Below, one piece after another: positions 16,501 to 62,300 of a stretch of 64,000 bases of DNA; the first letter of the stretch is position 1; each line of letters begins with the position of its first letter. The notes under the pieces are model-generated. The model had not been told where the DNA came from, ran no database searches, and saw only the letters and a list, made by a program, of their open reading frames with translations. Origin of the DNA: Ophelia neglecta. Taxonomy: Eukaryota. Location of the stretch: positions 41,602,001 through 41,666,000 of the forward strand of contig OZ260665.1 in assembly GCA_965285935.1 (NCBI GenBank), in the 5' to 3' direction. A program made the position numbers and the translations under genes.

Positions 16501-19500
16501 GAAGCTTTATCAACTGGTGCGGCTAACGCTTCCTGCTTTACATCCTCAATTGTTGAAAGTTCAGTTTCTTTGACCACAGACTCTTCATCAGGTTTAAATT
16601 GAGATTCCACAACCGCAGGAGAGATGGGTGGAGGTGTCTCAAATTCTGTTTCGATTGTCACTTGTATGTCTTCCTCTACTGGAGTGGGTTCAGTGTCCAG
16701 AACTGCTGGAATAACTGGCTTTTCAGAAACAATTGCTTCAACCAGCTCTTCTGGTGCTTCCTTTACTTCTTTCGACTCTTCAGTAAATTCAGATTTGAAC
16801 TCTTCAGTTGATATTTCAGTGGAAGAATATTGATATTCTTGCTCAGATATTACAGACTCTACTTTTCGTGTATCCTCCACAATTATCACGCCAGCAGAGA
16901 TATCAGAGTCTTTGATGACAGTGACGGGTGATGCTGCTCTCACCCCAATAACTATTCCACCATCTATGATTGCCCTGGCAGGTATTTCTGCTGGTGACTG
17001 TGGTATATCCTCCGTTCTATCTTCACACACTGGATGATCATAGACCGCTGAAGCTTTATCAACTGGTGCGGTTAACGCTTCCTGCTTTACATCCTCAATT
17101 GTTGAAAGTTCAGTTTCTTTGACCACAGACTCTTCATCAGGTTTAAGTTGAGCTTCCACAACCGCAGGAGAGATGGGTGGAGGTGTCTCAAAATCTGTTT
17201 CGATTGTCACTTGTATGTCTTCCTCTACTGGAGTGGGTTCAGTGTCCAGAACTGCTGGAATAACTGGCTTTTCAGAAACAATTGCTTCAACCAGCTCTTC
17301 TGATGCTTCCTTTACTTCTTTCGACTCCTCAGTAAATTCAGTTTTGAACTCTTCAGTTGAAATTTCAGTGGAAGAATATTGATATTCTTGCTCAGATATT
17401 ACAGACTCTACTTTTCGTGTGTCCTCCACAATTATCACGCCAGCAGAGTCTTGGATGAAAGCGACAGGCGATCCTGCTTCCACCCCAATAACTATCCCAC
17501 CATCTATAATTGCCCTGGCAGGTAGTTCTTTTGGTGACGTAAGTTTATCCTCACAAACTGGACCATCAACATCTGGGTTTATACCTTGTTTTACTACATC
17601 TTTCTCACCTGGAAATAAAATTGCAACTGTATTATTATCTTGCACATATAGTGCCTGTTTTTCCTCAACAGATTCAAACGTTTGTTCATCAGTATAAATA
17701 TTCTCGCAGCTCGATGTTTTTCCACTTTCTAATTTGCGATAGTGCTCTTCAGTGTATTTACTTTCGAACTCATCACCAATCACACGAGAGGAAACTTTTG
17801 CTTCCTTAATAGTTCCAGTCGCAGGGAAATATTTAACTAATTTATTTATAACAGTTCTGTGTATCGGAGTTCCATCTTCCAAATATTCATCATAATCTTG
17901 TATGGATGTTTCACTTTCTGTATCTTCACTTAATGTTCCTTGAAATCCCAACGGCAGGTGTAATATTTCTTCAACCACCTTTATACTTTGTTGTGTTCTT
18001 TCAATAATTGATTCTATGCCATCTACAATTACATTTTCAGTAACTGGTATAACGGTCTTCGTGGTAGTAACGGTCTTTTGACACTCAGTACCATTTTCCA
18101 ATACATAAGAACATTTATTTACATCTGTGATTATTTCCTCTTGCATTTCCCCAGCCACAATTTCATGCTCACCTAGTAAAGGTGCATCAGGTGGTAGTCG
18201 CTGTACTGTGGTTTTTACTACGTGATGTTTAATCCATGTACCATCCGGTAGAACATCGCTAAACTGTTCCACTGATGTTTCGGTGCATAAATTTTCTCCA
18301 TAATATGGTTCTTCAACCCCAGCAGGTATCTGTAAAATGTCAGTATAAACCTCTTTTCCAACTATGTTCCTTACTCCATTTATCTCATGCATGTAAATTG
18401 TTTTGGTTACAGTGTGTTTAGTAACAGTTCCATCTTCTGCAATATCCTCAGATTCTTCAGCACTCTCTGTAGTCTGAATTATGTTTTTTCCATCATCCTG
18501 CACTGTAGTCTCAGTAACCTGACTTGTTTCGAAGAGGTCCGAAACACTTTCTTCTTCAATATAATTTTCCTCTTCAGACAAATATGATTTTTCATCTGAT
18601 TCATCTACAGATAATCTCACATTACCCATGGTTTTATCTGCTGCTTGGACACTTTCAGGATGGGTAATATCTACAGGTGCTTGGCAAACTTCTTCAGTGA
18701 TCGTTGAGGTGTACTCTTTTGCAATGACTGCTTCTGGTGGACACGCTGGAGATGTTCCTAATGCAGGTTCTGCATATAGAATTTCTTCCTTTTTATGTTT
18801 ATATATAATTGATGTATCAATCTTTTCTTCATAAGTTTCTGGAATATTTTGTTCATTGACTTTTTCATGAGAGTATTCCCCTTGGTTAGAAATCGTGTCT
18901 AGGGACATTCTTTTCTGCTCAGCAACATCATCAATGCGAGTATTTTCCAACTGTTCCTGGACTACATAAATAGGTTGGTCAAATAATGCCTGTTCCGACA
19001 CTAAGCTAGGTGACTCTGTGTGCATAGCACACTCTTCCATTGTCAATCCTGATGATACATCCAGCACTTCTTCAAGTGACTCTCCATCTTGCTCCTGTAT
19101 TTGTTGAACAAACTGCTGAACAATGGGCTCTTCTGTTGGTACAGTGTAGCTCACCTCTTCTTTAAGCGACTGTTCATGGACTAAGTCCTTAACAGGGCTT
19201 CCAAATCCTTCTTTCTGTTCCTCGAAATCTCCTTGTTCTTTGACAAAAGTCAGGGGCTGCTTTAAAATGTGTTGCTTGACCTCTTCTAGGGATGCTTGTT
19301 CTATTCTCCCAGTTACCACTTCTTTGTGGTAAAAAGATTCTTCTACTTCTTTTTTCGATTGTATTTCTTGTACAACAACATGCTGCAATGGGATGCTTTT
19401 TTCAATTTTATCTTCTCTTTCTTCTACTAATCCTTGTGCATATTGTGGAGTTTCAGCAGGGGACTCTACAACAACACCATCTGTTACGGTACCTGACCAC

Positions 19501-22785: not shown

Positions 22786-24494
22786 CTGTTTATACAGGAT
22801 TAAAAACAAATGTTGTAATGAAAAACAATAAAAAAAGTTATTTGCTCTTTCAACACTAAATATTTCAATTTAAAAAAAGAAGGGAAGATATAGAGACACT
22901 GTTGTGATATTGGCAGAATATTAGTTAAATGTTAGCCATACCCAGCTAAAAGACTACCATTAAGCACCAAGTCTATCTTTATAGCCACTATAACTAATGC
23001 ACCAGCAATAAATTTTATTAGTGGCATCTATTATACAATAGACAGAACTATTTACGATTACTAAGAGTGTAACTTAGACAGAGAATTGGTTCACACTACA
23101 GAAGCATAATGACCTCTTCAGTATTTGTCACACCTTTTTATTTCATTTTGATTGGGGTATGTGAATTTGGATTAAATGAAATATCCGCATTTCAGGTAAC
23201 ATTTCCTAATCTTTGTGCTGCCCTATTTTTATCTTACTTTTTTCTAGCTACCAAATAAAATAAAATCCAAGCCGCCACTAGCCAGATGAATCAAGTGAGT
23301 GAAACTAAATTTTAACTACTTGCACATGGCACCTCTTGCTTCTGCCATGACATGGCACCCTATTCCATTTACATTCACCCATACTAGTTTGCCGATAACA
23401 TTTAGTGGTAACTCTGATACACAAGTAGTCCTATAACCCAAAGCTGACGAGTAGACAACAAATTAGATATGTAGTGAGAGGTAATATATATTAATATATA
23501 TATATTCCTACCTACCTACCCTCTTTTCTTGGAAGCGGTTATATATTTTTAGGGCTAACCCTACATGAGAACATGATGCATAATTATGCTTATATCCTGC
23601 CTAAACCTCATCCTGGCACTATACTTTCGACCCCATAAGTTAAGGCTAAATATCAGAAACTATCATTATAACTATCATTATAAACTATTTAGGAATTGAA
23701 TGACACAATAATACAACATGTAAGATACAAATACTTAAAAGAGGTCAGAATACAACTTTAATAACCATCATTGTAACCTGCATACAAAAGCATTGAACAA
23801 ATGAAGCAAAAGAGTTGCATTCTGGAATTATGATGGGAAGTCTCAATGCTTTTGCAGGCAATATAATTAGTGATATTAATAAAGTGCTTTGGTTATAATT
23901 CTTAACCATAAGGCAATGAATGATTACACCTTGATTATTCATAGCTTGTATTTAAGTGCATCATATTGCTTAATCTGTGCATAGATAGTGATGTAGTCCA
24001 TAATGCAATGTACAGAGCTGAAATGTTTTACAGCATAGCTTTTTGCAAGTAGAAATGCAACCCTTGGACCTATTTAAAACATGATTCATATATCTATGAT
24101 CAACCTATATCATTAGGATTCTTATTAAATAAGCAGGGGTTTTCAATCATTATAATAAAAGTTTAAAATTATGTTCTGTCTAAAAGAATGAGCTAGTCAT
24201 ACCGTTTATAACTATCAGATGTTTCTTTCCCTTTCAAAGTTTGTGTGATATTTGTACATATTTCTACTTAACTGACAGTGGGGGAATTACATCAGATCTG
24301 CACATGTACAGCTTGAACCGTCATTAGTATTATTTTTCTACAACCAAAACCCTTTGCTAATAAGCCTCTTATAGAATTATATCTACAAAAAGCGGGGTAT
24401 TGCTTGATTAGAGGAAGGGAAGGGTAAGGAGAGCAGCAAGTGGCAATTCAAATCCAAAGCACAGTCTGCTCATGCATATACCACTGTTCCTAAC

Positions 24495-27400
24495 CTGTCT
24501 TTGGCTGATCCTGCAGTACTGGCATTATTTCAGGTTCATCTATAACTGAATGTTGTTGGCTATCTGGCTCATTTTCTATCTCACCCACCGAAACCTGAAT
24601 AATTTCTTCATCAGACTCTATAAATGGATCGTTTTGAGGAACCATATTGCTTCTTGGTCGTGACTCATCAGCAATCAAGGATTCATTAATGATTTCACTA
24701 TACAACCCGTTCTCACCTGCGAAGCCATGCCTTTCCAATTCAGGGGCTACATCACCTTCTAAAATAGTACGTTCAGTCTTGAGCTGTTGCTCTGTTGTAG
24801 TGACAATCTTACGTTTCACCACTGTGCCATCTTCAAGTGTTTCTTCATACTCTTGCACGTCAGTTGCAGTTTCAGGTTCCCCATCTTGTCTATCGGTGTA
24901 TTTAGAATACTCAGGTTCCATTAAATCTGCTCGACTGAGAATATCCTGGGCTTGTTCCTCATTTGAAGGCAATTCTGTCTCAGGTCCTTCCAGCACAACC
25001 CGTTTGATAATTGTCTGCTTTTGCTTCGTTTTGATGACTTTTCGTTTTACCACAGTTCCATCAGGCAGCGTTTCCTCAAACTCTTGAACATCAGTTTCTA
25101 CTTGTGGTTCACCTTCAATAGTGTCTGTGTACATGCGAACACTTCCTCCTTCATTGTCAGACTCATAGGGAGAATGAATGGCTGCAGGAGACATGGAAGG
25201 AATAGGTGAGGAAAGTTCACGGGCATCACTGATACTTGAACGAATACTTGAAGTATCTGAAAAAATTTCAGACTCTGGAACCTCCTCAGTAATAACATCC
25301 TCAACAACATCCCCATCAGGACCCACCCTACGGATCTTTTTTGTCACCACTTTCTTTACTTTTGCTTTCATTACTCTACGTTTTACTATGCTACCATCTA
25401 AAAGCACTTCCTCAATTTCTTCAAAGTCATCAGATATTTCCCCAGATGGATACACTCCTTGTTGGAAAGGAGCATGAGGGTCAGCATGAATTTCCTCTTC
25501 ACTGACAGGCTTCTTCACCGCTTCGACAGGTTTAACAAGGTCAGGAGAAATTGTATATTCATCTACAGCTGAAGACGACATTATTGATGTTCTTGTCCGG
25601 GTAACGACACTCTTTATCCAGGATCCATCAGGTAATGACTCTTCACTTTCTTGGACTGAGGGTTTGGTGGCTAGGTTAGGACCTGTTATGTCCGTGACTC
25701 CAGCTGGCACTTCACTGATATCGGTCTTGATGTCCTTGCCAACAACGAAGACTGTTTCATTTTCTATCTCTCCCTCTTCTGGGTGGAGGATCTTTTCCTT
25801 TACCGGTTGAGAGTGGCTGACAGTTGTGACCTTGGTTGTTACTACAGTGCCATCTTCAAGTGTCTCCACATTTTCCTGCACATCTTCACTGGTGGTCACT
25901 GGACCGGTTTCTTTCTCTATCACTACTGGACCGGTTAACGTAGAAGTAGATTTAGTTGTGGTTTTCTTTATCCAAGAACCATCTGGCAAGCCTTGTTCTG
26001 ACTCAGATGTGCTGATTTTTGTTGATATATTTGGGATATTGGTATCTGTGACACCTACAGGAATTTCGGTTATCTCTTCTTCTATTTCCTTTCCGACCAA
26101 TGATTCCTTCTCTTGGATTGTTTCTGTGCCATCTTTATCCACTATCTCGGTAACTGGCTGAATATGAGATATTGTGGTCACTCTAGTCTTAATATAAGTT
26201 TTATGAACTCCGGTTTCTACAATATTTTCACTCTCCTGAACATCAGTCTTGGTTATGACATCTCCTTTTGTCACTTGCAAAAGTTTCTCAGAATCTACAG
26301 GAATCGACAATGGTTCTTGTGGAAGGAATTCTGCCTCAATACCTTCAACAGTCACCTTCTGTTCAGATTCAACAGGAGGTGCCTGTGCTCCAACCACCTT
26401 GACTGTTGTGGATTTGACTTGCTTTTTGACCCACGTACCATCTGGTAGGGTTTCTTCCAAGTCCTTTATAGCAACCTCTGTGGCCAGATCGTCCCCCTCA
26501 ACACTACTCACACCTGCTGGTAAGGAAGTGATCTCTTCAAGGATTTCGGCTCCCAATGTTTGCTCTACAACATTGCTGGTTGGTTGTCCATCCACTACCA
26601 GGTGCTCAGTAACTTCCTGGACATGTGTTGTAGTAGTGATTCTGGTGTTGACAGTTGTTCCATCATCCAATGACTCGGTTTTCTCCTGAACATCAGTTTT
26701 AGTGGTCACTGGGCCCAGTTCTCTTTCTACTGGCTGAACCTGTTCCACTGGTTGAGGGCCCACTATGGATGTGCTTGTCCGGGTAACTACACTCTTTATC
26801 CAGGATCCATCCGGCAATGACTCCTCACTTTCTTGGACTGAGGTTTTGTTGGCTAGGTTAGGACCTGTTATGTCCGTGACTCCAGCTGGTACTTCACTGA
26901 TATCAGTCTTGATGTCCTTGCCAACTACAAAGACTGTTTCATTTTCTATCTCTCCCTCTTCTGGGTGGAGGATCTTTTCCTTTACCGGTTGAGAGTGGCT
27001 GACAGTTGTGACCTTGGTTGTTACTACAGTGCCATCTTCAAGTGTCTCCACATTGTCCTGCACATCTTCACTGGTGGTCACTGGACCGGTTTCTTTCTCT
27101 ATCACTACTGGACCGGTTAACGTAGAAGTAGATGTAGTTGTGGTTTTCTTTATCCAAGTACCATCTGGCAAGCCTTGTTCTGACTCAGATGTGCTGATTT
27201 TTGTTGATATATTTGGGATATTGGTATCTGTGATACCTACAGGAATTTCAGTTATCTCTTCTTCTATTTCCTTTCCAACCAATGATTCCTTCTCTTGGAT
27301 TGCATCTTTGCCCTCTTTATCCACTATCTCGGTAACTGGCTGAATATGAGAGATTGTGGTCACTTTAGTCTTGATATGAGTTTTAAGAACGCCGGCTTCA

Positions 27401-30400
27401 ACAATATCTTCACTCTCCTGAACATCAGTCTTGGTTATGACATCTCCTTTTGTCACTTGCAAAAGTTTCTTAGAATCTACAGGAATCGACAATGGTTCTT
27501 GTGGAAGGAATTCTGCCTCAACACCTTCCACAGTCACCTTCTGTTCAGATTCTACAGGAGGTGCCTGTGCTCCAACCACCTTGACTGTTGTGGATTTGAC
27601 TTGCTTTTTGACCCACGTACCATCGGGTAGGGTTTCTTCCAAGTCCTTTATAGCAACCTCTGTGGCCAGATCGTCCCCCTCAACACTACTCACACCTGCT
27701 GGTAAGGAAGTGATCTCTTCAAGGATTTCGGCTCCCAATGTTTGCTCTACAACATTGCTGGTTGGTTGTCCATCCACTACCAGGTGCTCAGTAACTTCTT
27801 GGACATGTGTTGTAGTAGTGATTCTGGTGTTGACAGTTGCTCCATCATCCAATGACTCGGTTTTCTCCTGAACATCAGTTTTAGTGGTCACTGGGCCCAG
27901 TTCTCTTTCTACTGGCTGAACCTGTTCCACTGGTTGAGGGCCCACTATGGATGTGCTTGTCCGGGTAACGACACTCTTTATCCAGGATCCATCCGGCAAT
28001 GACTCCTCACTTTCTTGGACTGAGGTTTTGGTGGCTAGGTTAGGACCTGTTATGTCCGTGACTCCAGCTGGTACTTCACTGATATCAGTCTTGATGTCCT
28101 TGCCAACTACAATGACTGTTTCATTTTCTATCTCTCCCTCTTCTGGGTGGAGGATCTTTTCCTTTACCGGTTGAGAGTGGCTGACAGTTGTGACCTTGGT
28201 TGTTACTACAGTGCCATCTTCAAGTGTCTCCACATTGTCCTGCACATCTTCACTGGTGGTTACTGGACCGGTTTCTTTCTCTATCACTACTGGACCGGTT
28301 AACGTAGAAGTAGATGTAGTTTTGGTTTTCTTTATCCACGTTCCATCTGGCAAGCCTTGTTCTGACTCAGATGTGCTGATTTTTGTTGATATATTTGGGA
28401 TATTGGTATCTGTGATACCTACAGGAATTTCAGTTATCTCTTCTTCTATTTCCTTTCCAACCAATGATTCCTTCTCTTGGATTGTATCTTTGCCATCTTT
28501 ATCCACTATCTCGGTAACTGGCTGAATATGAGAGGTTGTGGTCACTTTAGTCTTGATATGAGTTTTAAGAACGCCGGCTTCAACAATATCTTCACTCTCC
28601 TGAACATCAGTCTTGGTTATGACATCTCCTTTTGTCACTTGCAAAAGTTTCTTAGAATCTACAGGAATCGACAATGGTTCTTGTGGAAGGAATTCTGCCT
28701 CAACACCTTCCACAGTCACCTTCTGTTCAGATTCAACAGGAGGTGCCTGTGCTCCAACCACCTTGACTGTTGTGGATTTGACTTGCTTTTTGACCCACGT
28801 ACCATCGGGTAGGGTTTCTTCCAAGTCCTTTATAGCAACCTCTGTGGCCAGATCGTCCCCCTCAACACTACTCACATCTGCTGGTAAGGAAGTGATCTCT
28901 TCAAGGATTTCGGCTCCCAATGTTTGCTCTACAACATTGCTGGTTGGTTGTCCATCCACTACCAGGTGCTCAGTAACTTCTTGGACATGTGTTGTAGTAG
29001 TGATTCTGGTGTTGACAGTTGCTCCATCATCCAATGACTCGGTTTTCTCCTGAACATCAGTTTTAGTGGTCACTGGGCCCAGTTCTCTTTCTACTGGCTG
29101 AACCTGTTCCACTGGTTGAGGGCCCACTATGGATATGCTTGTCCGGGTAACGACACTCTTTATCCAGGATCCATCCGGCAATGACTCCTCACTTTCTTGG
29201 ACTGAGGTTTTGGTGGCTAGGTTAGGACCTGTTATGTCCGTGACTCCAGCTGGTACTTCACTGATATCAGTCTTGATGTCCTTGCCAACTACAAAGACTG
29301 TTTCATTTTCTATCTCTCCCTCTTCTGGGTGGAGGATCTTTTCCTTTACCGGTTGAGAGTGGCTGACAGTTGTGACCTTGGTTGTTACTACAGTGCCATC
29401 TTCAAGTGTCTCCACATTGTCCTGCACATCTTCACTGGTGGTTACTGGACCGGTTTCTTTCTCTATCACTACTGGACCGGTTAACGTAGAAGTAGATGTA
29501 GTTTTGGTTTTCTTTATCCACGTTCCATCTGGCAAGCCTTGTTCTGACTCAGATGTGCTGATTTTTGTTGATATATTTGGGATATTGGTATCTGTGATAC
29601 CTACAGGAATTTCAGTTATCTCTTCTTCTATTTCCTTTCCAACCAATGATTCCTTCTCTTGGATTGTATCTTTGCCATCTTTATCCACTATCTCGGTAAC
29701 TGGCTGAATATGAGAGATTGTGGTCACTTTAGTCTTGATATGAGTTTTAAGAACGCCGGCTTCAACAATATCTTCACTCTCCTGAACATCAGTCTTGGTT
29801 ATGACATCTCCTTTTGTCACTTGCAAAAGTTTCTCAGAATCTACAGGAATCGACAATGGTTCTTGTGGAAGGAATTCTGCCTCAATACCTTCAACAGTCA
29901 CCTTCTGTTCAGATTCAACAGGAGGTGCCTGTGCTCCAACCACCTTGACTGTTGTGGATTTGACTTGCTTTTTGACCCACGTACCATCGGGTAGGGTTTC
30001 TTCCAAGTCCTTTATAGCAACCTCTGTGGCCAGATCGTCCCCCTCAACACTACTCACACCTGCTGGTAAGGAAGTGATCTCTTCAAGGATTTCGGCTCCC
30101 AATGTTTGCTCTACAACATTGCTGGTTGGTTGTCCATCCACTACCAGGTGCTCAGTAACTTCTTGGACATGTGTTGTAGTAGTGATTCTGGTGTTGACAG
30201 TTGCTCCATCATCCAATGACTCGGTTTTCTCCTGAACATCAGTTTTAGTGGTCACTGGGCCCAGTTCTCTTTCTACTGGCTGAACCTGTTCCACTGGTTG
30301 AGGGCCCACTATGGATGTGCTTGTCCGGGTAACGACACTCTTTATCCAGTATCCATCCGGCAATGACTCCTCACTTTCTTGGACTGAAGTTTTGGTGGCT

Positions 30401-33400
30401 AGGTTAGGACCTGTTATGTCCGTGACTCCAGCTGGTACTTCACTGATATCAGTCTTGATGTCCTTGCCAACTACAAAGACTGTTTCATTTTCTATCTCTC
30501 CCTCTTCTGGGTGGAGGATCTTTGCCTTTACCGGTTGAGAGTGGCTGACAGTTGTGACCTTGGTTGTTACTACAGTGCCATCTTCAAGTGTCTCCACATT
30601 GTCCTGCACATCTTCACTGGTGGTCACTGGACCGGTTTCTTTCTCTATCACTACTGGACCGGTTAACGTAGAAGTAGATGTAGTTGTGGTTTTCTTTATC
30701 CACGTTCCATCTGGCAAGCCTTGTTCTGACTCAGATGTGCTGATTTTTGTTGATATATTTGGGATATTGGTATCTGTGATACCTACAGGAATTTCAGTTA
30801 TCTCTTCTTCTATTTCCTTTCCAACCAATGATTCCTTCTCTTGGATTGTATCTTTGCCATCTTTATCCACTATCTCGGTAACTGGCTGAATATGAGAGAT
30901 TGTGGTCACTTTAGTCTTGATATGAGTTTTAAGAACGCCGGCTTCAACAATATCTTCACTCTCCTGAACATCAGTCTTGGTTATGACATCTCCTTTTGTC
31001 ACTTGCAAAAGTTTCTCAGAATCTACAGGAATCGACAATGGTTCTTGTGGAAGGAATTCTGCCTCAATACCTTCAACAGTCACCTTCTGTTCAGATTCAA
31101 CAGGAGGAGCCTGTGCTCCAACCACCTTGACTGTTGTGGATTTGACTTGCTTTTTGACCCACGTACCATCGGGTAGGGTTTCTTCCAAGTCCTTTATAGC
31201 AACCTCTGTGGCCAGATCGTCCCCCTCAACACTACTCACACCTGCTGGTAAGGAAGTGATCTCTTCAAGGATTTCGGCTCCCAATGTTTGCTCTACAACA
31301 TTGCTGGTTGGTTGTCCATCCACTACCAAGTGCTCAGTAACTTCTTGGACATGTGTTGTAGTAGTGATTCTGGTGTTGACAGTTGTTCCATCATCCAATG
31401 ACTCGGTTTTCTCCTGAACATCAGTTTTAGTGGTCACTGGGCCCAGTTCTCTTTCTACTGGCTGAACCTGTTCCACTGGTTGAGGGCCCACTATGGATGT
31501 GCTTGTCCGGGTAACGACACTCTTTATCCAGGATCCATCCGGCAATGACTCCTCACTTTCTTGGACTGAGGTTTTGGTGGCTAGGTTAGGACCTGTTATG
31601 TCCGTGACTCCAGCTGGTACTTCACTGATATCAGTCTTGATGTCCTTGCCAACTACAAAGACTGTTTCATTTTCTATCTCTCCCTCTTCTGGGTGGAGGA
31701 TCTTTTCCCTTACCGGTTGAGAGTGGCTGACAGTTGTGACCTTGGTTGTTACTACAGTGCCATCTTCAAGTGTCTCCACATTGTCCTGCACATCTTCACT
31801 GGTGGTCACTGGACCGGTTTCTTTCTCTATCACTACTGGACCGGTTAACGTAGAAGTAGATACAGTTGTGGTTTTCTTTATCCACGTTCCATCTGGCAAG
31901 CCTTGTTCTGACTCAGATGTGCTGATTTTTGTTGATATATTTGGGATATTGGTATCTGTGATACCTACAGGAATTTCAGTTATCTCTTCTTCTATTTCCT
32001 TTCCAACCAATGATTCCTTCTCTTGGATTGTATCTTTGCCATCTTTATCCACTATCTCGGTAACTGGCTGAATATGAGAGATTGTGGTCACTTTAGTCTT
32101 GATATGAGTTTTAAGAACGCCGGCTTCAACAATATCTTCACTCTCCTGAACATCAGTCTTGGTTATGACATCTCCTTTTGTCACTTGCAAAGGTTTCTCA
32201 GAATCTACAGGAATCGACAATGGTTCTTGTGGAAGGAATTCTGCCTCAATACCTTCAACAGTCACCTTCTGTTCAGATTCAACAGGAGGTGCCTGTGTTC
32301 CAACCACCTTGACTGTTGTGGATTTGACTTGCTTTTTGACCCACGTACCATCGGGTAGGGTTTCTTCCAAGTCCTTTATAGCAACCTCTGTGGCCAGATC
32401 GTCCCCCTCAACACTACTCACACCTGCTGGTAAGGAAGTGATCTCTTCAAGGATTTCGGCTCCCAATGTTTGCTTTACAACATTGCTGGTTGGTTGTCCA
32501 TCCACTAACAGGTGCTCAGTAACTTCTTGGACATGTGTTGTAGTAGTGATTCTGGTGTTGACAGTTGTTCCATCATCCAATGACTCGGTTTTCTCCTGAA
32601 CATCAGTTTTAGTGGTCACTGGGCCCAGTTCTCTTTCTACTGGCTGAACCTGTTCCACTGGTTGAGGGCCCACTATGGATGTGCTTGTCCGGGTAACGAC
32701 ACTCTTTATCCAGGATCCATCCGGCAATGACTCCTCACTTTCTTGGACTGAGGTTTTGGTGGCTAGGTTAGGACCTGTTATGTCCGTGACTCCAGCTGGT
32801 ACTTCACTGATATCAGTCTTGATGTCCTTGCCAACTACAAAGACTGTTTCATTTTCTATCTCTCCCTCTTCTGGGTGGAGGATATTTTCCTTTACCGGTT
32901 GAGAGTGGCTGACAGTTGTGACCTTGGTTGTTACTACAGTGCCATCTTCAAGTGTCTCCACATTGTCCTGCACATCTTCACTGGTGGTCACTGGACCGGT
33001 TTCTTTCTCTATCACTACTGGACCGGTTAACGTAGAAGTAGATGTAGTTGTGGTTTTCTTTATCCAAGTACCATCTGGCAAGCCTTGTTCTGACTCAGAT
33101 GTGCTGATTTTTGTTGATATATTTGGGATATTGGTATCTGTGATACCTACAGGAATTTCAGTTATCTCTTCTTCTATTTCCTTTCCAACCAATGATTCCT
33201 TCTCTTGGATCGTATCTTTGCCATCTTTATCCACTATCTCGGTAACTGGCTGAATATGAGAGATTGTGGTCACTTTAGTCTTGATATGAGTTTTAAGAAC
33301 GCCGGCTTCAACAATATCTTCACTCTCCTGAACATCAGTCTTGGTTATGACATCTCCTTTTGTCACTTGCAAAAGTTTCTCAGAATCTACAGGAATCGAC

Positions 33401-36400
33401 AATGGTTCTTGTGGAAGGAATTCTGCCTCAATACCTTCAACAGTCACCTTCTGTTCAGATTCAACAGGAGGTGCCTGTGCTCCAACCACCTTGACTGTTG
33501 TGGATTTGACTTGCTTTTTGACCCACGTACCATCGGGTAGGGTTTCTTCCAAGTCCTTTATAGCAACCTCTGTGGCCAGATCGTCCCCCTCAACACTACT
33601 CACACCTGCTGGTAAGGAAGTGATCTCTTCAAGGATTTCGGCTCCCAATGTTTGCTCTACAACATTGCTGGTTGGTTGTCCATCCACTACCAAGTGCTCA
33701 GTAACTTCTTGGACATGTGTTGTAGTAGTGATTCTGGTGTTGACAGTTGTTCCATCATCCAATGACTCGGTTTTCTCCTGAACATCAGTTTTAGTGGTCA
33801 CTGGGCCCAGTTCTCTTTCTACTGGCTGAACCTGTTCCACTGGTTGAGGGCCCACTATGGATGTGCTTGTCCGGGTAACGACACTCTTTATCCAGGATCC
33901 ATCCGGCAATGACTCTTCACTTTCTTGGACTGAGGTTTTGGTGGCTAGGTTAGGACCAGTTATGTCCGTGACTCCAGCTGGTACTTCACTGATATCAGTC
34001 TTGATGTCCTTGCCAACTACAAAGACTGTTTCATTTTCTATCTCTCCCTCTTCTGGGTGGAGGATCTTTTCCTTTACCGGTTGAGAGTGGCTGACAGTTG
34101 TGACCTTGGTTGTTACTACATCGCCATCTTCAAGTGTCTCCACATTGTCCTGCACATCTTCACTGGTGGTCACTGGACCGGTTTCTTTCTCTATCACTAC
34201 TGGACCGGTTAACGTAGAAGTAGATGTAGTTGTGGTTTTCTTTATCCAAGTACCATCTGGCAAGCCTTGTTCTGACTCAGATGTGCTGATTTTTGTTGAT
34301 ATATTTGGGATATTGGTATCTGTGATACCTACAGGAATTTCAGTTATCTCTTCTTCTATTTCCTTTCCAACCAATGATTCCTTCTCTTGGATCGTATCTT
34401 TGCCATCTTTATCCACTATCTCGGTAACTGGCTGAATATGAGAGATTGTGGTCACTTTAGTCTTGATATGAGTTTTAAGAACGCCGGCTTCAACAATATC
34501 TTCACTCTCCTGAACATCAGTCTTGGTTATGACATCTCCTTTTGTCACTTGCAAAAGTTTCTCAGAATCTACAGGAATCGACAATGGTTCTTGTGGAAGA
34601 AATTCTGCCTCAATACCTTCAACAGTCACCTTCTGTTCAGATTCAACAGGAGGTGCCTGTGCTCCAACCACCTTGACTGTTGTAGATTTGACTTGCTTTT
34701 TGACCCACGTACCATCGGGTAGGGTTTCTTCCAAGTCCTTTATAGCAACCTCTGTGGCCAGATCGTCCCCCTCAACACTACTCACACCTGCTGGTAAGGA
34801 AGTGATCTCTTCAAGGATTTCGGCTCCCAATGTTTGCTCTACAACATTGCTGGTTGGTTGTCCATCCACTACCAGGTGCTCAGTAACTTCTTGGACATGT
34901 GTTGTAGTAGTGATTCTGGTGTTGACAGTTGTTCCATCATCCAATGACTCGGTTTTCTCCTGAACATCAGTTTTAGTGGTCACTGGGCCCAGTTCTCTTT
35001 CTACTGGCTGAACCCGTTCCACTGGTTGAGGGCCCACTATGGATGTCCTTGTCCGGGTAACGACACTCTTTATCCAGGATCCATCCGGCAATGACTCCTC
35101 ACTTTCTTGGACTGAGGTTTTGGTGGCTAGGTTAGGACCTGTTATGTCCGTGACTCCAGCTGGTACTTCACTGATATCAGTCTTGATGTCCTTGCCAACT
35201 ACAAAGACTGTTTCATTTTCTATCTCTCCCTCTTCTGGGTGGAGGATCTTTTCCTTTACCGGTTGAGAGTGGCTGACAGTTGTGACCTTGGTTGTTACTA
35301 CAGTGCCATCTTCAAGTGTCTCCACATTGTCCTTCACATCTTCACTGGTGGTCACTGGACCCGTTTGTTTCTCTATCACTACAGGACCGGTTAACGTAGA
35401 AGTAGATATAGTTGTGGTTTTCTTTATCCAAGTACCATCTGGCAAGCCTTGTTCTGACTCAGATGTGCTGATTTTTGTTGATATATTTGGGATATTGGTA
35501 TCTGTGATACCTACAGGAATTTCAGTTATCTCTTCTTCTATTTCCTTTCCAACAAATGATTCCTTCTCTTGGATTGTATCTTTGCCATCTTTATCCACTA
35601 TCTCGGTAACTGGCTGAATATGAGAGATTGTGGTCACTTTAGTCTTGATATGAGTTTTAAGAACGCCGGCTTCAACAATATCTTCACTCTCCTGAACATC
35701 AGTCTTGGTTATGACATCTCCTTTTGTCACTTGCAAAAGTTTCTCAGAATCTACAGGAATCGACAATGGTTCTTGTGGAAGGAATTCTGCCTCAATACCT
35801 TCAACAGTCACCTTCTGTTCAGATTCAACAGGAGGTGCCTGTGCTCCAACCACCTTGACTGTTGTGGATTTGACTTGCTTTTTGACCCACGTACCATCGG
35901 GTAGGGTTTCTTCCAAGTCCTTTATAGCAACCTCTGTGGCCAGATCGTCCCCCTCAACACTACTCACACCTGCTGGTAAGGAAGTGATCTCTTCAAGGAT
36001 TTCGGCTCCCAATGTTTGCTCTACAACATTGCTGGTTGGTTGTCCATCCACTACCAGGTGCTCAGTAACTTCTTGGACATGTGTTGTAGTAGTGATTCTG
36101 GTGTTGACAGTTGTTCCATCATCCAATGACTCGGTTTTCTCCTGAACATCAGTTTTAGTGGTCACTGGGCCCAGTTCTCTTTCTACTGGCTGAACCTGTT
36201 CCACTGGTTGAGGGCCCACTATGGATGTGCTTGTCCGGGTAACGACACTCTTTATCCAGGATCCATCCGGCAATGACTCCTCACTTTCTTGGACTGAGGT
36301 TTTGATGGCTAGGTTAGGACCTGTTATGTCCGTGACTCCAGCTGGTACTTCACTGATATCAGTCTTGATGTCCTTGCCAACTACAAAGACTGTTTCATTT

Positions 36401-39400
36401 TCTATCTCTCCCTCTTCTGGGTGGAGGATCTTATCCTTTACCGGTTGAGAGTGGCTGACAGTTGTGACCTTGGTTGTTACTACAGTGCCATCTTCAAGTG
36501 TCTCCACATTGTCCTGCACATCTTCACTGGTGGTCACTGGACCGGTTTCTTTCTCTATCACTACTGGACCGGTTAACATAGAAGTAGATGTAGTTGTGGT
36601 TTTCTTTATCCACGTTCCATCTGGCAAGCCTTGTTCTGACTCAGATGTGCTGATTTTTGTTGATATATTTGGGATATTGGTATCTGTGATACCTACAGGA
36701 ATTTCAGTTATCTCTTCTTCTATTTCCTTTCCAACCAATGATTCCTTCTCTTGGATTGTATCTTTGCCATCTTTATCCACTATCTCAGTAACTGGCTGAA
36801 TATGAGAGATTGTGGTCACTTTAGTCTTGATATGAGTTTTAAGAACGCCGGCTTCAACAATATCTTCACTCTCCTGAACATCAGTCTTGGTTATGACATC
36901 TCCTTTTGTCACTTGCAAAAGTTTCTCAGAATCTACAGGAATCGACAATGGTTCTTGTGGAAGGAATTCTGCCTCAATACCTTCAACAGTCACCTTCTGT
37001 TCAGATTCAACAGGAGGTGCCTGTGCTCCAACCACCTTGACTGTTGTGGATTTGACTTGCTTTTTGACCCACGTACCATCGGGTAGGGTTTCTTCCAAGT
37101 CCTTTATAGCAACCTCTGTGGCCAGATCGTCCCCCTCAACACTACTCACACCTGCTGGTAAGGAAGTGATCTCTTCAAGGATTTCGGCTCCCAATGTTTG
37201 CTCTACAACATTGCTGGTTGGTTGTCCATCCACTACCAGGTGCTCAGTAACTTCTTGGACATGTGTTGTGGTAGTGATTCTGGTGTTGACAGTTGTTCCA
37301 TCATCCAATGACTCGGTTTTCTCCTGAACATCAGTTTTAGTGGTCACTGGGCCCATTTCTCTTTCTACTGGCTGAACCTGTTCCACTGGTTGAGGGCCCA
37401 CTATGGATGTGCTTGTCCGGGTAACGACACTCTTTATCCAGGATCCATCCGGCAATGACTCCTCACTTTCTTGGACTGAGGTTTTGGTGGCTAGGTTAGG
37501 ACCTGTTATGTCCGTGACTCCAGCTGGTACTTCACTGATATCAGTCTTGATGTCCTTGCCAACTACAAAGACTGTTTCATTTTCTATCTCTCCCTCTTCT
37601 GGGTGGAGGATCTTTTCCTTTACCGGTTGAGAGTGGCTGACAGTTGTGACCTTGGTTGTTACTACAGTGCCATCTTCAAGTGTCTCCACATTGTCCTGCA
37701 CATCTTCACTGGTGGTCACTGGACCCGTTTGTTTCTCTATCACTACAGGACCGGTTAACGTAGAAGTAGATATAGTTGTGGTTTTCTTTATCCAAGTACC
37801 ATCTGGCAAGCCTTGTTCTGACTCAGATGTGCTGATTTTTGTTGATATATTTGGGATATTGGTATCTGTGATACCTACAGGAATTTCAGTTATCTCTTCT
37901 TCTATTTCCTTTCCAACCAATGATTCCTTCTCTTGGATTGTATCTTTGCCATCTTTATCCACTATCTCGGTAACTGGCTGAATATGAGAGATTGTGGTCA
38001 CTTTAGTCTTGATATGAGTTTTAAGAACGCCGGCTTCAACAATATCTTCACTCTCCTGAACATCAGTCTTGGTTATGACATCTCCTTTTGTCACTTGCAA
38101 AAGTTTCTCAGAATCTACAGGAATCGACAATGGTTCTTGTGGAAGGAATTCTGCCTCAATACCTTCAACAGTCACCTTCTGTTCAGATTCAACAGGAGGT
38201 GCCTGTGCTCCAACCACCTTGACTGTTGTGGATTTGACTTGCTTTTTGACCCACGTACCATCGGGTAGGGTTTCTTCCAAGTCCTTTATAGCAACCTCTG
38301 TGGCCAGATCGTCCCCCTCAACACTACTCACACCTGCTGGTAAGGAAGTGATCTCTTCAAGGATTTCGGCTCCCAATGTTTGCTCTACAACATTGCTGGT
38401 TGGTTGTCCATCCACTACCAGGTGCTCAGTAACTTCTTGGACATGTGTTGTAGTAGTGATTCTGGTGTTGACAGTTGTTCCATCATCCAATGACTCGGTT
38501 TTCTCCTGAACATCAGTTTTAGTGGTCACTGGTCCTAATTCCTTTTCAGGTTGTAAATTATCTACCAATGTCTTTACTGTTTTAGTTGTTGTTTTCTTCA
38601 GCCATGTTTCGTCAGGAAGGATTTCTTCTGATTCCTGTACTGACATTTTTGAAGACAAATTTGCATCGACAGTATCAACAAGTTCAGCTGGAAGCTCTGT
38701 TATGTCCTCCATGATTTCCTGGCCAAGCACCTCTTCATGTTCTACGAACGTTTGCTCGCCTGCTACAATAATTGATTCAGTAACTGGTTGTATATGAGTG
38801 ATGGTTGTTAATTTTCTCTTAACTAACGTGCCATCAGACAAAACTCGCTCACTCTCTTCAACAGCTGTCCTTGTTAATATATCTCCTTTGGTAAGTTTTA
38901 ACTCCTTACAAGGCTCTGGAAGCGTAGCCAGCTGGTGTTCAGGGAAGTCAGAAGAAATGGATTCTACACCACAAACTTGCTGTACCAATTCATCAGGTGG
39001 TGAAGTTGTTCCAATCGTACGAACTACAACTTTACTTACATGTCGTTTTTCCCACGTCCCATCAGAAAGAGTTTGTTCCGAATCATGCTCGGATTGCTCT
39101 GTTTCTAAATTAGCACCAAATGGGCCGCTCACACCTTGAGGAAGGACCAATATATCTTCTTTTACTTCAGTGCCAAGAATCTTCTTAGACTCGCGAATAG
39201 ATTCTTCCTTTCCTTGCATAGTTCGCTCAGACAGCGGAATGAAATGAGTGGTTGTTGTTATGGTCACCTTAACTGTTGTCCCGTCAGGTAAAACTTCTTC
39301 TTTATCCTTAACTGTGGTCATTGTCGTCGGCTCTCCTTCTACAATTTCAGTTTTTGCCGGCGGTATTAGACTTTTTTCATCTCGATCAATAAGCATTTGA

Positions 39401-40193: not shown

Positions 40194-43100
40194 CTTGGCA
40201 ACCTTCATCTGGTGCAGCATGAACTGCTGAGTCTTCCTGCCTAAGAAGACGTTCCACTGCAGACACAACAGTTGTTGTCATAGTTTTCTTTTCCCATGTT
40301 CCATCAGGGCGCGTTTGTTCAGATTCTTGAACGGACACTTTTACATCAAGATTATCTCCTTCGGGCGAGTGTAAACCCTCTGGTAATTGCGTCACCTCTT
40401 CCAGAACTTCAGTGCCTAATATCTGTTCTGACTCATTAACAGTTTCAATACCATCACTTATCGTTTTTTCTATGATTGGTTTGTAATGGGTGACAGTAGT
40501 AGTTTTAGTTTTAACGGTGGTTCCATCATCCAGTGCCTCCTCACTTTCCTTCGTGTCTGTCCTTGTAGTCACTTCACCTTCTATCACTTCTGTTTTTGCC
40601 TCGGGTTCTTTCAATGTTAGTTCCTGTTCAATTTCTCTCGGTGCACCTATGTCATCTGCCATTAGTTGAATAGGTACTTCTTCGACGTTCGCTACTTTTT
40701 GATTAAGTTCCACGTGCGGTTCATCTGTTTGCACCTTTTTAACAGATGTTGTTTTAACTGTTTTCTTTGCCCATGTTCCATCAGGGAGAGTTTGCTCAGA
40801 ATCTTGAACGGACACTTTTACTTCCAAATTGTCTCCTTCCGAGGAATGGACGCCCTCGGGCAATTCTGTGACTTCCTCCAGTATGTCAGTGCCTACAATG
40901 TGGTCAACTTTATTGATTGTTTCAATACCATCTATACTGGTAATTTCAATAACTGGCTTATAGTAGGTCAGAGTAGTGGTCTTGGTCTTAAGAGTGGTAC
41001 CATCATCGAGTACCTCCTCGCTGTCTTTAGTGTCAGTCTTAGTGGTCACCTCTCCTTCTATCACTTCTGTCTTGGTCTCGGGTTCTTTCAAAGTCAGATC
41101 CTGTTCAATTTCTTTGGGTGTACTAATTTCATTAGCCGTAAGTTGACTAGGTTCTTCTTCGATTTGTGATATTTTTTGATCAAGTTTCACTGCCGGTTCA
41201 ACTGACTGCACCTTTTTAACAGTGGTTGTTTTCACCGTTTTCCTTATCCATATTCCATCAGAAAGAGTTTGTTCCGAGTCTTGAACAGACACTTTTACAT
41301 CCAGATTATCTCCTTCTGGAGAGAGTACATCCTCCGGTAATTCAGTTACTTCTTCCACGACCTCTGTGCCTAATACTTGTTCTGATTCATTAACAGTTTC
41401 TATTCCGTCACTAGTCGTTTTTTCTATAATTGGTTTGTAATGGGTGACAATAGTAGTTTTAGTTTTGACAGTGGTTCCATCATCAAGTACCTCCTCACTT
41501 TCCTTCGTGTCAGTCCTTGTGGTCACTTCTCCTTTTATCACTTCTGTCTTGGCCTCGGGTTCTTTAAAAGTAAGTTCTTGTTCAATTTCTCTCGGTGCAC
41601 TTATGTCGTCTTTCGTTAGTTGAATAGGTTCTTCCTTAACTTGTATTTTCTGCTCAAGTTCATCTGGCGGTTCACCTGTTTGCACCTTTTCACAAGTGGT
41701 TGTTTTTACTGTTTTTCTTATCCATGTTCCATCAGGGAGAGTTTGTTCCGAGTCTTGCACGGACACTTTAACATCCAAATTATCTACATCTTGAGAGAGT
41801 ACACCCTCCGGCAATTCAGCCACCTCTTCCAGAACTTCGGTGCCTACAACTTGTTCTGACTCATTGACAGTTTCAATACCATAACTAGTCGTTTTTTCCA
41901 CGATTGGTTTGTAATGGGTGACAGTAGTAGTTTTGGTTTTGACAGTGGTTCCATCATCCAGTAAGTCGTCACTTTCTTTAATATCAGTCCTTGTGGTCAC
42001 TTCTCCTTTTATCACTTCTGTTTTGATTTCAGGTTCTTTCAAAGATATTTCCTGTTCAATTTCTCTGGGTGCATTAATTTCATCTGCCGTTAGTTGAATG
42101 GGTAGTTCTTCGACCTGTGCTACATTTTGACCAAGATCCACTACGGGTTCCACTTCGTGCACCTTTTCAACAGTGGTTGTTTTAACAGTTTTTCTTGTCC
42201 ATGTTCCATCAGGCAGAGTTTGTTCCGAGTCTTGAACGGACACTTTTACATCCAGATTATCTCCTTCGGGGGAGTGGGTACCCTCCGGTAATTTAGTCAC
42301 CTCTTCTAGAACCTCTGTGCCTAAAATTTGCTCTGATTCATTCTCAGTTTCAATGCCGTCACTAGTCGTTTTTTCTATGATTGGTTTGTAATGGGTGACA
42401 ATAGTAGATTTAGTTTTGACGGTGGTTCCATCATCCAGTACCTCGTCACTTTCCTTCGTGTCAGTCCTTGTTGTAACATCTCCCTCTATCACTTCAGTCT
42501 TGATCTCCGGTTCTTTCAAAGATATTTCCTGTTCAATTTCTTTGGGTGAACTAATTTCATCCGCTATTCGTTGACTAGGTACTTCTTCGCCTTGAGCTAC
42601 TTTTTGATCAGGTTCCGCTGATGGTTCAAATATTTGCCCCTTTTTAACAGTGGTTGTTTTAACCGTTTTCCTTGTCCATGTTCCATCAGGGAGAGTCTGT
42701 TCAGAATCTTGAACTGACACTTTTACATCAAGATTATCTCCTTCGGGCGAGTGTAAACCCTCTGGTAAATATGTCACCTCTTCCAGAACTTCAGTGCCTA
42801 ATACTTGTTCTGATTCATTAACAGTTTCAATACCATCACTAATCGTTTTTTCTAAGACTGGTTTGTAATGGGTGATAGTGGTAGTTTTGGTTTTGACAGT
42901 GGTTCCATCAGCCAGTAAATCCTCACTTTCTTTAGTATCAGTCCTTGTGGTCACTTCTCCTTCTATCACTTCTGTCTTGACCTTGGGTTCTTTCAAAGTA
43001 TGTTCCTGTTCAGTTTCTCTAGGTGAACTTATGTCATCTGCCATTAATTGAATAGGTACTTCTTCGATCTGTGCTACTTGTTGATCAAGTTCACCTTGCG

Positions 43101-46100: not shown

Positions 46101-46820
46101 ATTTTGACTTTACTTTCGTTCCATTATCAAGGATATTTTCGGTTTCTTTTATCTCTGATTTTGTAACTATTTCGCCTTGGGAAACTTTACTCGTAGTTAC
46201 AGGACTTTGAAGCAAAGTTTCTTTCTTCAGTGTAGCGTAAATTGTTTTGACTGTTCTTCTTAGGTAAGACCCATTGCTTTGTACAGTTTCAGACGTTTCT
46301 GCCTCACATTCGTCTCTTTCAAGTTCTTCCAGATTTTCAAAAGAGACCCCAGCCGGCACATAAGTAATCTCTTCCTGGATGTCTGTGCCTATTAGTACTT
46401 CTTCAATGATATTGGAACTTTCTTCTATCCCATCAATGAATACTTTCTCAATATGTGGTTCAATGTGTGAAATAGTAGTCACTTTGGTTATAACGGTAGT
46501 GCCATCTTGTTGGGTTTGTTTATTTTCAGTTACACTACATTTATCTTGGATTGGTGCTTTTATAATATCCTTAGTCACTGCTGGTGGTTTTGTAGGAGGG
46601 ACAATTTCAGTTATGTCAGATTCTAGGATATGATCTGGAACAGTTTCAGAGTACACCATTTCAACAGGTTCTGCGGTTTGGGGGACACTAATCTTGTCAA
46701 CTAGTTCTTGTTCTATTCCAGTTGGGCTAACAGTGTCATAGCTTTCCTGAAATGTTCCCCTGTCTGGGTGTTCAGGGGTTGGAGTAAGTTCCCTGTCTTC
46801 TTCTGACGGAGAACCTCTTT
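40194..46820 (-). CDS. ANK: Giant exon A (6,627 bp, about 2,209 aa), E/T/V/K-rich repeats
   Basis: Lies inside ORF 40117..46911; acceptor ATTTCCAG|AA, donor CAAG|GTAGGA; phase 1-1. Confidence 0.88.
40260..45845 (-). repeat. Coding tandem array, 12 x 477 bp (159 aa), moderately diverged
   Basis: The THYKP anchor recurs every 474-477 bp from about 40483 to 45724; two further diverged modules extend to about 46550. Confidence 0.92.
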
Positions 46821-61030: not shown

Positions 61031-61324
61031 CTACACATTCACATTGTATCTTTAATAATAGTCTAATATTCAGGAAACTGTATGAAATATCTGATTTCCT
61101 TGGTACTTAATAGCAAGGAGGGATGGAGTGTGGCTTATTTACATAACAATACTCTTCCACTTTAAGGCCTTAAAATACACCACCTATGCCAGAGTCAACC
61201 ATTTAAATACTCTGAAACTATAAAAAATGGTTCAATAAACCAGTATTCAATAAACCAGAATGACTAAACAGTACATATCAAACTTGACATGTGTTAGACT
61301 GATGTATAGTGACAAGACACTGAC

Positions 61325-61453
61325 CAGCTTGGTCAAGATGGACCTTGGCTACTGCTCTTTCCACGGCGTCAGTCACTTCCTCTATGTTGTACATACATTT
61401 TCTGATGACATCCTCACGTCCTATTTTTTGAAGGGCACGTTCCAGTTCATTGC
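61325..61453 (-). CDS. ANK: Ankyrin exon: death domain, C-terminal part
   Basis: Acceptor TTTTAAAG|, donor G|GTCAGT; 129 bp; GNELERALQKIGREDVIRKCMYN (the L.KIGR.D(I/V) motif). Confidence 0.92.
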
Positions 61454-61888
61454 CTTTAAAAAATATTAAATACAAATCACCTAATGAGTACATGTGTTTT
61501 ATCAAGGACTTATCTGCTACCAATTTCAATGCATGTTTATTCATATACTATCATTTAAACATCACATAAATTAATGTATATTCAGCAATGTACCATATTC
61601 TCTGAAATAAGCGTCTAGGTCACTTATTCAACCCAAGTAGAAATAAAACAAATCCCCCTGTCTACTTTTATGCATGACACCCCAAAAACCTTGTGAAAAT
61701 TGTCAAAATGGATAGATTTTGACAAAAAAGAAGGGTGGGCACTTATTAGGGCATGGTGGCTTATTACAAAAAATACTGTAAGAATTGTGTCAATTGTGCT
61801 CTGCATGATGGAAATTCTGATGCAGTGTTTGATTAAATTAATTTGAATTATTAGGGACTTTTCATTGTTAGATACTATGGGTGCTTAC

Positions 61889-62095
61889 CTGTGGCATTTT
61901 CTCCATTCTTCTGTACCCATAGATGGAGCATGACAAGTGCTTGCTCACTGACATATGTGTATTCATTTTGTATTTTTAGAATTTCATCTTCGGTGATGTT
62001 GAGCTGGCGTGCTAACACCACCCAGTCTCCTTGTAATGTGTCGGCAATGTCGGTTAAACGTAACTCGGCCTTGGATATGTTATCATCAACAGGTG
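61889..62095 (-). CDS. ANK: Ankyrin exon: death domain, N-terminal part
   Basis: Acceptor TTTCTTGTAG|, donor G|GTAAGC; 207 bp, phase 1-1; LRLTDIADTLQGDWVVLARQL...EQALVMLHLWVQKNGENAT, a typical ankyrin death-domain pattern. Confidence 0.93.
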
Positions 62096-62300
62096 CTACA
62101 AGAAAAGGAAAAAAGAAAGTGGTCACTATGAAACATTTTCCTGCAGGATTGCATTACATAATAGACATATTAGAATAAAATAATACCTTTTGCTATAAAG
62201 CCTTCAGAAAATAAATAGTTTTCAACCTATTATAGTTAGAAGTTCACTAGAAAGAATAAATATTAAATAATGTTGCCATGAGTATTTGCTGTCTGCTTAC

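What the first reader, a model, noticed from the sequence alone, without database searches (positions are those of the whole stretch)
24755..25430. Obscurin-binding-like motifs clustered at the end of giant exon B
Seen: FEEIEEVLLDGSIVKRRVMKAKVKKVVTKKIRRVGPDG, FEETLPDGTVVKRKVIKTKQKQTIIKRVV and YEETLEDGTVVKRKIVTT, which are basic islands in a very acidic protein. Known: the C-termini of vertebrate sAnk1.5 and AnkB bind obscurin through acidic-D.x.G-V/T-KK(I/V).RK(V/I)-type segments. Inference: these are homologous motifs, and the amplified DGT module may derive from this ancestral hairpin, making the tail a multivalent scaffold.
Basis: partly seen in the sequence, partly recalled or inferred. 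Interest (0 to 1): 0.7.

Follow-up and report, generated by a model that had tools for sequence, protein, structure and literature searches.

The report
Folded beta-hairpin repeats in worm ankyrin
These three motifs are a conserved block near the end of a huge coding stretch of a likely annelid ankyrin gene, related to a predicted folded unit repeated about fifty times upstream; their likeness to the vertebrate obscurin-binding site is too weak to show kinship, and obscurin binding is unlikely.

Summary
The three motifs are real and in frame in giant ORF B of a canonical ankyrin (ANK-ZU5-UPA-DD, long exons after DD). They form a ~230-aa block, 63-72% identical in 11 relatives, duplicated in ORF C, and modelled as acidic-strand/DG-turn/basic-strand beta-hairpins. 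They are homologous to each other and (98.8%) to a 115-aa repeat present 51 times upstream, which AlphaFold2 folds confidently (pLDDT 94) as a five-strand all-beta domain with no Pfam family and no PDB match at Z>=5. Short relatives end in hairpins 2+3, and a strong internal splice acceptor here predicts the same isoform. Related hairpins lie after the death domain in Owenia and bivalve ankyrins. The obscurin link fails its stated test: an AnkB obscurin-binding profile finds human ANK1 at 46.5 bits but does not rank the motifs above background; profile-profile probability is 5.5%, and the best sub-score (24.5) is nearly matched by its reversal (21.4). Weak directional similarity remains, strongest between a different AnkB end exon and this gene's last exon. 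Verdict: a new folded repeat and likely docking block in lophotrochozoan ankyrins; deep kinship with vertebrate modules open; obscurin binding unsupported.

The parts
25273..25428 (-). Hairpin unit H1: acidic strand, DG turn, long basic strand (+11 in 20 aa), PDG turn, acidic strand (three-strand meander)
   Evidence: H1 vs H2 97.4%, vs H3 96.5%
25141..25272 (-). Ser/Pro-rich low-confidence linker between H1 and H2
   Evidence: pLDDT under 50 at residues 56-99
25181..25211 (-). Predicted internal phase-1 splice acceptor (exon would start at 25181), giving a short exon with H2+H3 only
   Evidence: highest pyrimidine count (20 of 24) of 588 YAG sites in ORF B; phase fits the donor at 56795; short relatives align from 25158; no RNA evidence
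24982..25140 (-). Hairpin unit H2 (most conserved; +8 in 20 aa)
24751..24906 (-). Hairpin unit H3, tandem paralog of H2, joined to it by a short helix
   Evidence: H2 vs H3 99.6%; model
24490..24500 (-). Predicted phase-1 splice donor ending exon B at 24495
   Evidence: sequence; a relative runs from this region on to the last exon (P0016)
25582..39354 (-). 35 copies of the 115-aa repeat domain (R) in ORF B
40255..46572 (-). 14 copies of the R domain in ORF A; the copy at 42640-42978 was folded (pLDDT 94.2, pTM 0.76, five strands)
17832..18479 (-). Two divergent R copies in ORF C
3561..4220 (-). Paralogous H1-H2-H3 block in ORF C
   Evidence: 53% identity, E 3e-62; third codon positions 85 of 212 identical vs 149 and 152 at first and second; groups with other species' C-type copies
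61281..63298 (-). [quoted passage not shown]
   Evidence: Pfam UPA_2 E 1e-22 and 7e-27, Death E 5e-11; tblastn

Best explanation
The three motifs are the most conserved, lysine/arginine-rich members of a hairpin family that also builds the 51 upstream repeats of this ankyrin; they are predicted to fold as thin beta-sheets and likely act as a docking block for an acidic partner, likely held away from the membrane by a repeat spacer whose length splicing would set. Shown: sequence, conservation, duplication, family membership, position. Predicted: each basic strand pairs with the acidic strand before it; the repeat is a folded five-strand domain; an internal acceptor yields a short isoform keeping H2+H3. 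Inferred: the shift from Thr-rich strands in the repeats (20-27% K/R) to K/R-rich strands in H1 and H2 (40% and 32%) makes an exposed basic face for an acidic ligand such as tubulin tails or an acidic beta-strand added at the sheet edge. The partner is not identified and is probably not obscurin.
For: Block 63-72% identical in 11 of 42 hits while the repeats are 22-54% identical between types and species. 84 of 91 full hits end within 120 aa of the block. Full-length short ankyrins end in H2+H3 (P0172, P0024). Two ancient paralogs kept under purifying selection. Repeat vs block 98.8%. Repeat model pLDDT 94.2, five models 83.5-94.2; block model gives the same hairpins at pLDDT 70-85. Strand composition. 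Related hairpins after the death domain in Owenia (31 bits) and Dreissena (28 bits) against 4 bits for reversed controls.
Against: No ligand was tested. The block model has pTM 0.30, so packing of the units is unknown. Whole units are not net basic, so the basic residues may simply balance neighbouring strands. H3 is no more basic than repeat strands (24%). The acceptor lies in Ser/Pro codons that are pyrimidine-rich anyway. AlphaFold2 can be confident on long beta meanders that are not stable alone. Column conservation of H1-H3 (0.55-0.63) is only modestly above the repeat set (0.50), which mixes paralogs.
Confidence: 0.5

Rival explanations
1. One reading: the motifs are homologs of the vertebrate obscurin-binding domain and bind this animal's obscurin/UNC-89, forming a multivalent muscle scaffold.
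For: Same place in the protein (after the death domain, near the end of short isoforms). Unguided phmmer put H2 on human ANK1 1777-1833, the obscurin-binding hairpin, though at -6.7 bits. H1 vs AnkB site 2: probability 71%, above 118 of 120 shuffles. Repeat N-half vs site 2 is colinear over both turns, 19.5 vs 11.2 reversed, 1 of 150 shuffles as high. Basic residues at the places of sAnk1 K101 and R104 in H1 and H2. sAnk1 is also modelled as a beta-sheet (PMC11927728).
Against: Reversed H1 scores 21.4 vs 24.5, and reversed H2 beats forward (20.7 vs 15.5). Whole-block vs AnkB 5.5%. Block profiles do not retrieve ANK1 from PDB sequences at E<=10 while the AnkB profile does at 46.5 bits and gives 12.6 bits to plastocyanin by chance. 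The AnkB profile does not place the window motifs in its top six (down to 3.6 bits) on the locus, and scores 3 forward vs 8 reversed hits at 8 bits or more on invertebrate proteins. The place of K105 is mostly Thr in H2 and H3. No clear site-1 equivalent (7 columns, 2.7%). UNC-89 and fly obscurin lack the ankyrin-binding region (PMC12812942).
Confidence: 0.1
2. The block is purely structural: degenerate end copies that cap the repeat rod or stabilise the C-terminus, with basic residues serving only as cross-strand counter-charges; the vertebrate likeness is convergence on a common hairpin pattern.
For: Units are net neutral or acidic. The pattern is near-palindromic and generic. H2+H3 aligns end to end with one repeat.
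Against: The block is kept in short ankyrins that have no repeat array and in ORF C far from any repeat; it is more conserved than the repeats and twice retained.
Confidence: 0.2
3. Block and repeats are intrinsically disordered, as giant-ankyrin inserts are usually described, and form hairpins only on binding; the confident model is an artefact.
For: Composition is E/T/V/K-rich; no PDB fold at Z>=5; the AnkB giant insert is labelled disordered (PMC9386378).
Against: Fixed unit length, invariant turn glycines and conserved strand register over 45 aligned copies down to 22% identity; pLDDT of 90 or more at 93 of 113 residues.
Confidence: 0.15

Closest known systems
Vertebrate ankyrin obscurin/titin-binding-related domain (OTBD; OBD1+OBD2 of sAnk1.5, AnkB, AnkG107)
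   Same: After the death domain; acidic strand, DxG-type turn, K/R/V/I-rich strand, second turn; repeated modules; beta-sheet model
   Different: No significant profile match; basic strand longer in H1; no clear OBD1; amplified to 51 further copies inside giant exons; the known partner region is reported missing in worm and fly obscurin
Protostome giant ankyrins (Drosophila Ank2-L/XL, C. elegans giant UNC-44, Aplysia)
   Same: ANK-ZU5-ZU5-UPA-DD core with long exons after DD and repeat arrays
   Different: Five long ORFs (2268, 5017, 6363, 413, 3562 aa); repeat unit of 115 aa predicted to be a folded domain and conserved across many species, whereas Jegla 2016 lists units of 12-76 aa recognisable only between very close species
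G5/E repeats of staphylococcal Aap/SasG (single-layer beta rods; description recalled)
   Same: Tandem all-beta units rich in T/E/K/V; weak hits: Aap E 0.5, G5 domains Z 3.4 and 3.0 on the N-terminal three strands
   Different: Below every threshold; five strands, cytoplasmic, animal; at most an analogy for how the array could act as a stiff spacer
Alternative last exon of vertebrate AnkB (hairpin plus terminal helix; 8 of 119 fetched isoforms)
   Same: Colinear 59-column match to this gene's last exon, 25.9 vs 13.9 reversed, 0 of 150 shuffles; its DGS hairpin is the best vertebrate match to H2, H3 and the repeat
   Different: Probability only 46% and 14-35%; it is not the mapped obscurin-binding site

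Membership tests
Ankyrin obscurin-binding domain (OTBD/OBD) | Lies in the ankyrin C-terminal region after the death domain | tested here: met
Ankyrin obscurin-binding domain (OTBD/OBD) | Significant sequence-profile similarity to sAnk1.5/AnkB sites | tested here: not met
   5.5%; reversed control about equal; ANK1 not retrieved; positive control 46.5 bits. Vertebrate profile is AnkB only and shallow (Neff 1.5).
Ankyrin obscurin-binding domain (OTBD/OBD) | Two basic sites (R64-K73 and K100-R108 of sAnk1) within about 76 aa | tested here: inconclusive
   only a 7-column match to site 1 at 2.7%; definition from PMC11927728 and PMC3575540
Ankyrin obscurin-binding domain (OTBD/OBD) | Critical residues T99, K101, R104, K105 (PMC2172649) | tested here: inconclusive
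   aligned on the turn glycine: K101 and R104 places basic in H1 and H2, K105 place mostly Thr, T99 place basic (Val in AnkB); numbering inferred
Ankyrin obscurin-binding domain (OTBD/OBD) | [quoted passage not shown] | not testable with these tools
   no obscurin tail sequence was obtained; no complex job run
Ankyrin obscurin-binding domain (OTBD/OBD) | The species' obscurin carries an ankyrin-binding tail | not tested
   38 RhoGEF matches listed, obscurin not picked out; review says UNC-89 and fly obscurin lack it
Ankyrin obscurin-binding domain (OTBD/OBD) | Muscle-specific inclusion | not testable with these tools
   needs tissue RNA
Bilaterian giant ankyrin | ANK repeats, ZU5-ZU5-UPA and death domain | tested here: met
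Bilaterian giant ankyrin | Long exon(s) over 3 kb after the death domain (protostome position) | tested here: met
   ORFs of 6.8, 15.1, 19.1 and 10.7 kb; criterion from PMC5135030
Bilaterian giant ankyrin | Giant isoform is transcribed | not testable with these tools
   needs RNA of this species; P0016 shows the exon B end joined to the last exon in a relative
G5/E-type beta-rod repeat | Pfam G5 match at the gathering score | tested here: not met
   E 0.41, 11.3 vs 23 bits for the block; 0 of 45 repeat copies at E<=0.1
G5/E-type beta-rod repeat | Same fold | tested here: inconclusive
   Z 3.4, rmsd 3.2, 55 aligned; Z 3.0, rmsd 3.9, 61 aligned

The most novel reading that the evidence does not exclude
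The last common bilaterian ankyrin already ended in acidic-DG-basic hairpin modules plus a terminal helix. Vertebrates duplicated them into the obscurin/titin-binding modules, long held to be a vertebrate gain, while annelids amplified the same module into a folded beta-domain repeated tens of times, turning part of the giant exon into a tunable rigid ruler instead of a disordered spacer.
Probability: 0.35. Interest if true: 0.75.

Novelty: new variant of a known kind. Interest (0 to 1): 0.5.

Why it matters
Giant-ankyrin long exons are treated as fast-evolving, unalignable and disordered. Here a 115-aa unit without a Pfam family is predicted with high confidence to fold, recurs 51 times, is shared by many species and is kin to a conserved block that short ankyrins keep at their C-terminus. 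This gives a crystallisable handle on how a giant ankyrin could measure distance and on where giant-exon sequence came from. If deuterostome bridging sequences confirm the weak vertebrate match, the origin of the obscurin-binding module moves back to the bilaterian ancestor.

Tried and rejected
Pfam on 10 window segments: nothing above cut-off for block or repeats; 45 repeat copies likewise. PDB sequence searches with the block, two block profiles and the repeat profile: no ANK1; an anchored profile merged into one envelope and was uninformative. Fold searches: block best Z 3.4, repeat best Z 4.9, no Foldseek E<=0.001; absence does not prove a new fold. ESM Atlas: no usable hit twice. No RNA holder listed; three contig sets of one sample cover the block evenly with no variant in it, not independent support. 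Earlier findings: none. Obscurin was not identified among 38 RhoGEF matches. No complex prediction was run, for lack of a partner sequence. SxIP-like matches are mostly strand ends of the repeats and were not pursued. About 70 profile pairs were compared, so isolated scores near 20-25 need caution. The tree is the quick one, and my motif label missed the window's own C copy because the stored fragment lacks its tail. Six paper look-ups were not held, including Hopitzan 2006, Busby 2011, Willis 2012, Cunha 2008 and Subramaniam 2022. Long cells of the Jegla sequence supplement are cut, so it was not searched for the motif.

Full report
Setting. The window holds part of one ankyrin gene on the minus strand. 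UPA and death-domain exons lie at 63298-61281; ANK-repeat and ZU5 exons map upstream. After the death domain come small exons and long ORFs A (2268 aa), B (5017), C (6363), D (413) and E (3562, outside the window), then a short last exon about 19 kb past the window start. This is the protostome giant-ankyrin layout of Jegla 2016 (PMC5135030; passages, S4 Table and S1 Text read). The animal is likely an annelid: the only species-named hit among 42 block homologs is Helobdella; core-domain identities to named species (62-70%) do not decide it.

Observation. The three peptides are present once each at 25425-25312, 25080-24994 and 24849-24796. H1 and H2 are the only two windows of +5 or more per 20 aa in ORF B; H3 is not an island, and all three whole units are neutral or acidic. 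A second copy of the block, 53% identical, lies in ORF C and is the only other strong match in the genome. Exon B has a predicted donor at 24495, so the block ends an internal exon.

Conservation. 42 of 2155 candidates of 411-2000 aa match at E<=0.01, 11 of them at 63-72% over at least 86% of the block. A 22-row profile (20 of those 42 plus the two window copies) finds 199 representatives at E<=0.001; the best 150 were listed, unnamed, and 49 were not seen. 84 of 91 full-length hits end within 120 aa of the block. In a quick tree of 108 rows the C copy falls on the side holding all 20 rows with the C-type downstream motif and the B copy on the other (support 96); third codon positions of B vs C are 85 of 212 identical against 149 and 152. 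The duplication is therefore old and both copies are under selection. Related hairpins lie after the death domain in Owenia, Dreissena and Crassostrea ankyrins, with reversed controls at 4 bits; none stood out in the arthropod tails among 74 distinct tails.

Short isoforms. P0172 is a full 1960-aa ankyrin ending in H2+H3; P0024 runs death domain, H2+H3, last exon; P0016 runs from the block to the last exon. In the window a phase-1 acceptor at 25181, between H1 and H2, has the best pyrimidine tract of 588 YAG sites in ORF B and fits the donor at 56795. This predicts the same short isoform; it has not been seen in RNA.

Relation to the amplified module. A 115-aa unit occurs 14 times in A, 35 in B and 2 in C, and 493 times in 75 held sequences, a few of the weakest being the block itself. 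A clean 45-row alignment matches H2+H3 end to end at 98.8% and each hairpin at 94-98%, reversed scores 13-22 against 38-62. H1, H2 and H3 match each other at 96-99.6%. AlphaFold2 folds the unit at pLDDT 94.2, pTM 0.76, as five long strands. It has no Pfam family and no PDB match at Z>=5; G5 domains appear weakly. The block model shows the same hairpins at lower confidence (mean 63.7, pTM 0.30). Strands after the turn hold 20-27% K/R in repeats, 40% in H1, 32% in H2, 24% in H3 and 36% in AnkB site 2.

The obscurin test. 119 vertebrate AnkB-type proteins were fetched; 107 carry site 2, 13 site 1 and 8 a further end exon. An 8-row AnkB profile retrieves human ANK1 at 46.5 bits and plastocyanin at 12.6, but does not list the window motifs in its top six on 179,000 translated residues of the locus, and scores reversed invertebrate proteins as well as forward ones. 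The block profile reaches about 3.6 bits on AnkB in the part of the output seen and misses ANK1 in the PDB set. Profile-profile probability is 5.5%. For: phmmer placed H2 on ANK1 1777-1833 unguided, at -6.7 bits; H1 vs site 2 scores 24.5 (71%), but 21.4 reversed and 2 of 120 shuffles reach it; the repeat N-half aligns over both turns, 19.5 vs 11.2 reversed, 1 of 150 shuffles. The better directional match is elsewhere: the AnkB end exon's top hit on the locus is this gene's last exon (9.3 bits), 59 colinear columns, 25.9 vs 13.9 reversed, 0 of 150 shuffles, probability 46%; its hairpin matches H2 at 20.4 vs 11.3 reversed, 0 of 120 shuffles. All are below database significance and come from about 70 pairs. 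I put deep homology with the vertebrate modules at about 0.4 and obscurin binding at about 0.1.

Literature. Passages read: PMC11927728 (two basic sites; beta-sheet model), PMC2172649 (critical residues; also section 6), PMC3575540 (76-aa insert also binds plectin and filamin C), PMC12812942 (UNC-89 and fly obscurin lack the ankyrin-binding region), PMC7072516, PMC9386378 (giant insert labelled disordered), PMC2942773 (reports Hopitzan 2006: modules I-III arose by duplication in vertebrates). Hopitzan 2006 itself was not available. Search listings showed no paper on annelid giant-ankyrin repeats; the library lacks most subscription journals. The description of G5/E rods as stiff single-layer sheets is recalled.

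Mechanism. Most likely the membrane-binding core anchors the protein, a variable number of folded repeats act as a spacer, and the conserved K/R-rich hairpins at the exon end dock an acidic partner, with splicing choosing short, B-type or C-type forms (0.5). Folding and the short isoform are predictions; the spacer and docking roles are inferences; the partner is unknown.

Verdict. Observation partly confirmed, interpretation partly supported. Not filed as an obscurin-binding domain. New variant of a known kind; interest 0.5.

Noticed in passing
G000:C8 about 41582790-41582942 (L010:790-942), minus strand: The gene's last exon encodes a basic strand, DG turn, acidic strand and a terminal helix; the helix is shared with insect ankyrin ends (95%) and the exon aligns weakly but colinearly with an alternative last exon of vertebrate AnkB.
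   Followed up: partly
window 4700-17400, ORF C: A second, unrelated array of roughly 190-aa units, each with a conserved hydrophobic Ile/Val/Gly stretch inside acidic sequence; no Pfam match above cut-off; not folded or searched.
   Followed up: no
window 1-1200 and G000:C8 about 41590095-41600780: Two more acidic ORFs (413 and 3562 aa) follow ORF C; all five together would add about 17,600 aa if spliced into one isoform.
   Followed up: no
window 25582-38535: ORF B repeats form near-identical 394-aa blocks of three domain types, about 11 times, suggesting recent expansion; collapsed high-depth contigs agree.
   Followed up: partly
window 53172-54082: Intronic 30-bp tandem repeat, 30.6 copies, open on both strands for about 250 codons; likely a minisatellite.
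   Followed up: no
P0351, P0295 (vertebrate AnkB tails): Long AnkB tails hold four to five similar turn-plus-basic-strand units in a row, not only the two mapped obscurin sites; pairwise profile scores among them are low.
   Followed up: partly
P0004-P0010: Several relatives carry an extra H1-like three-strand unit 130-400 aa upstream of the block.
   Followed up: no
P0100, P0103, P0104, P0107-P0109, P0114, P0152, P0153: In some unnamed records H2 and H3 appear as separate short ORFs, as if split into small exons in ankyrin paralogs.
   Followed up: no
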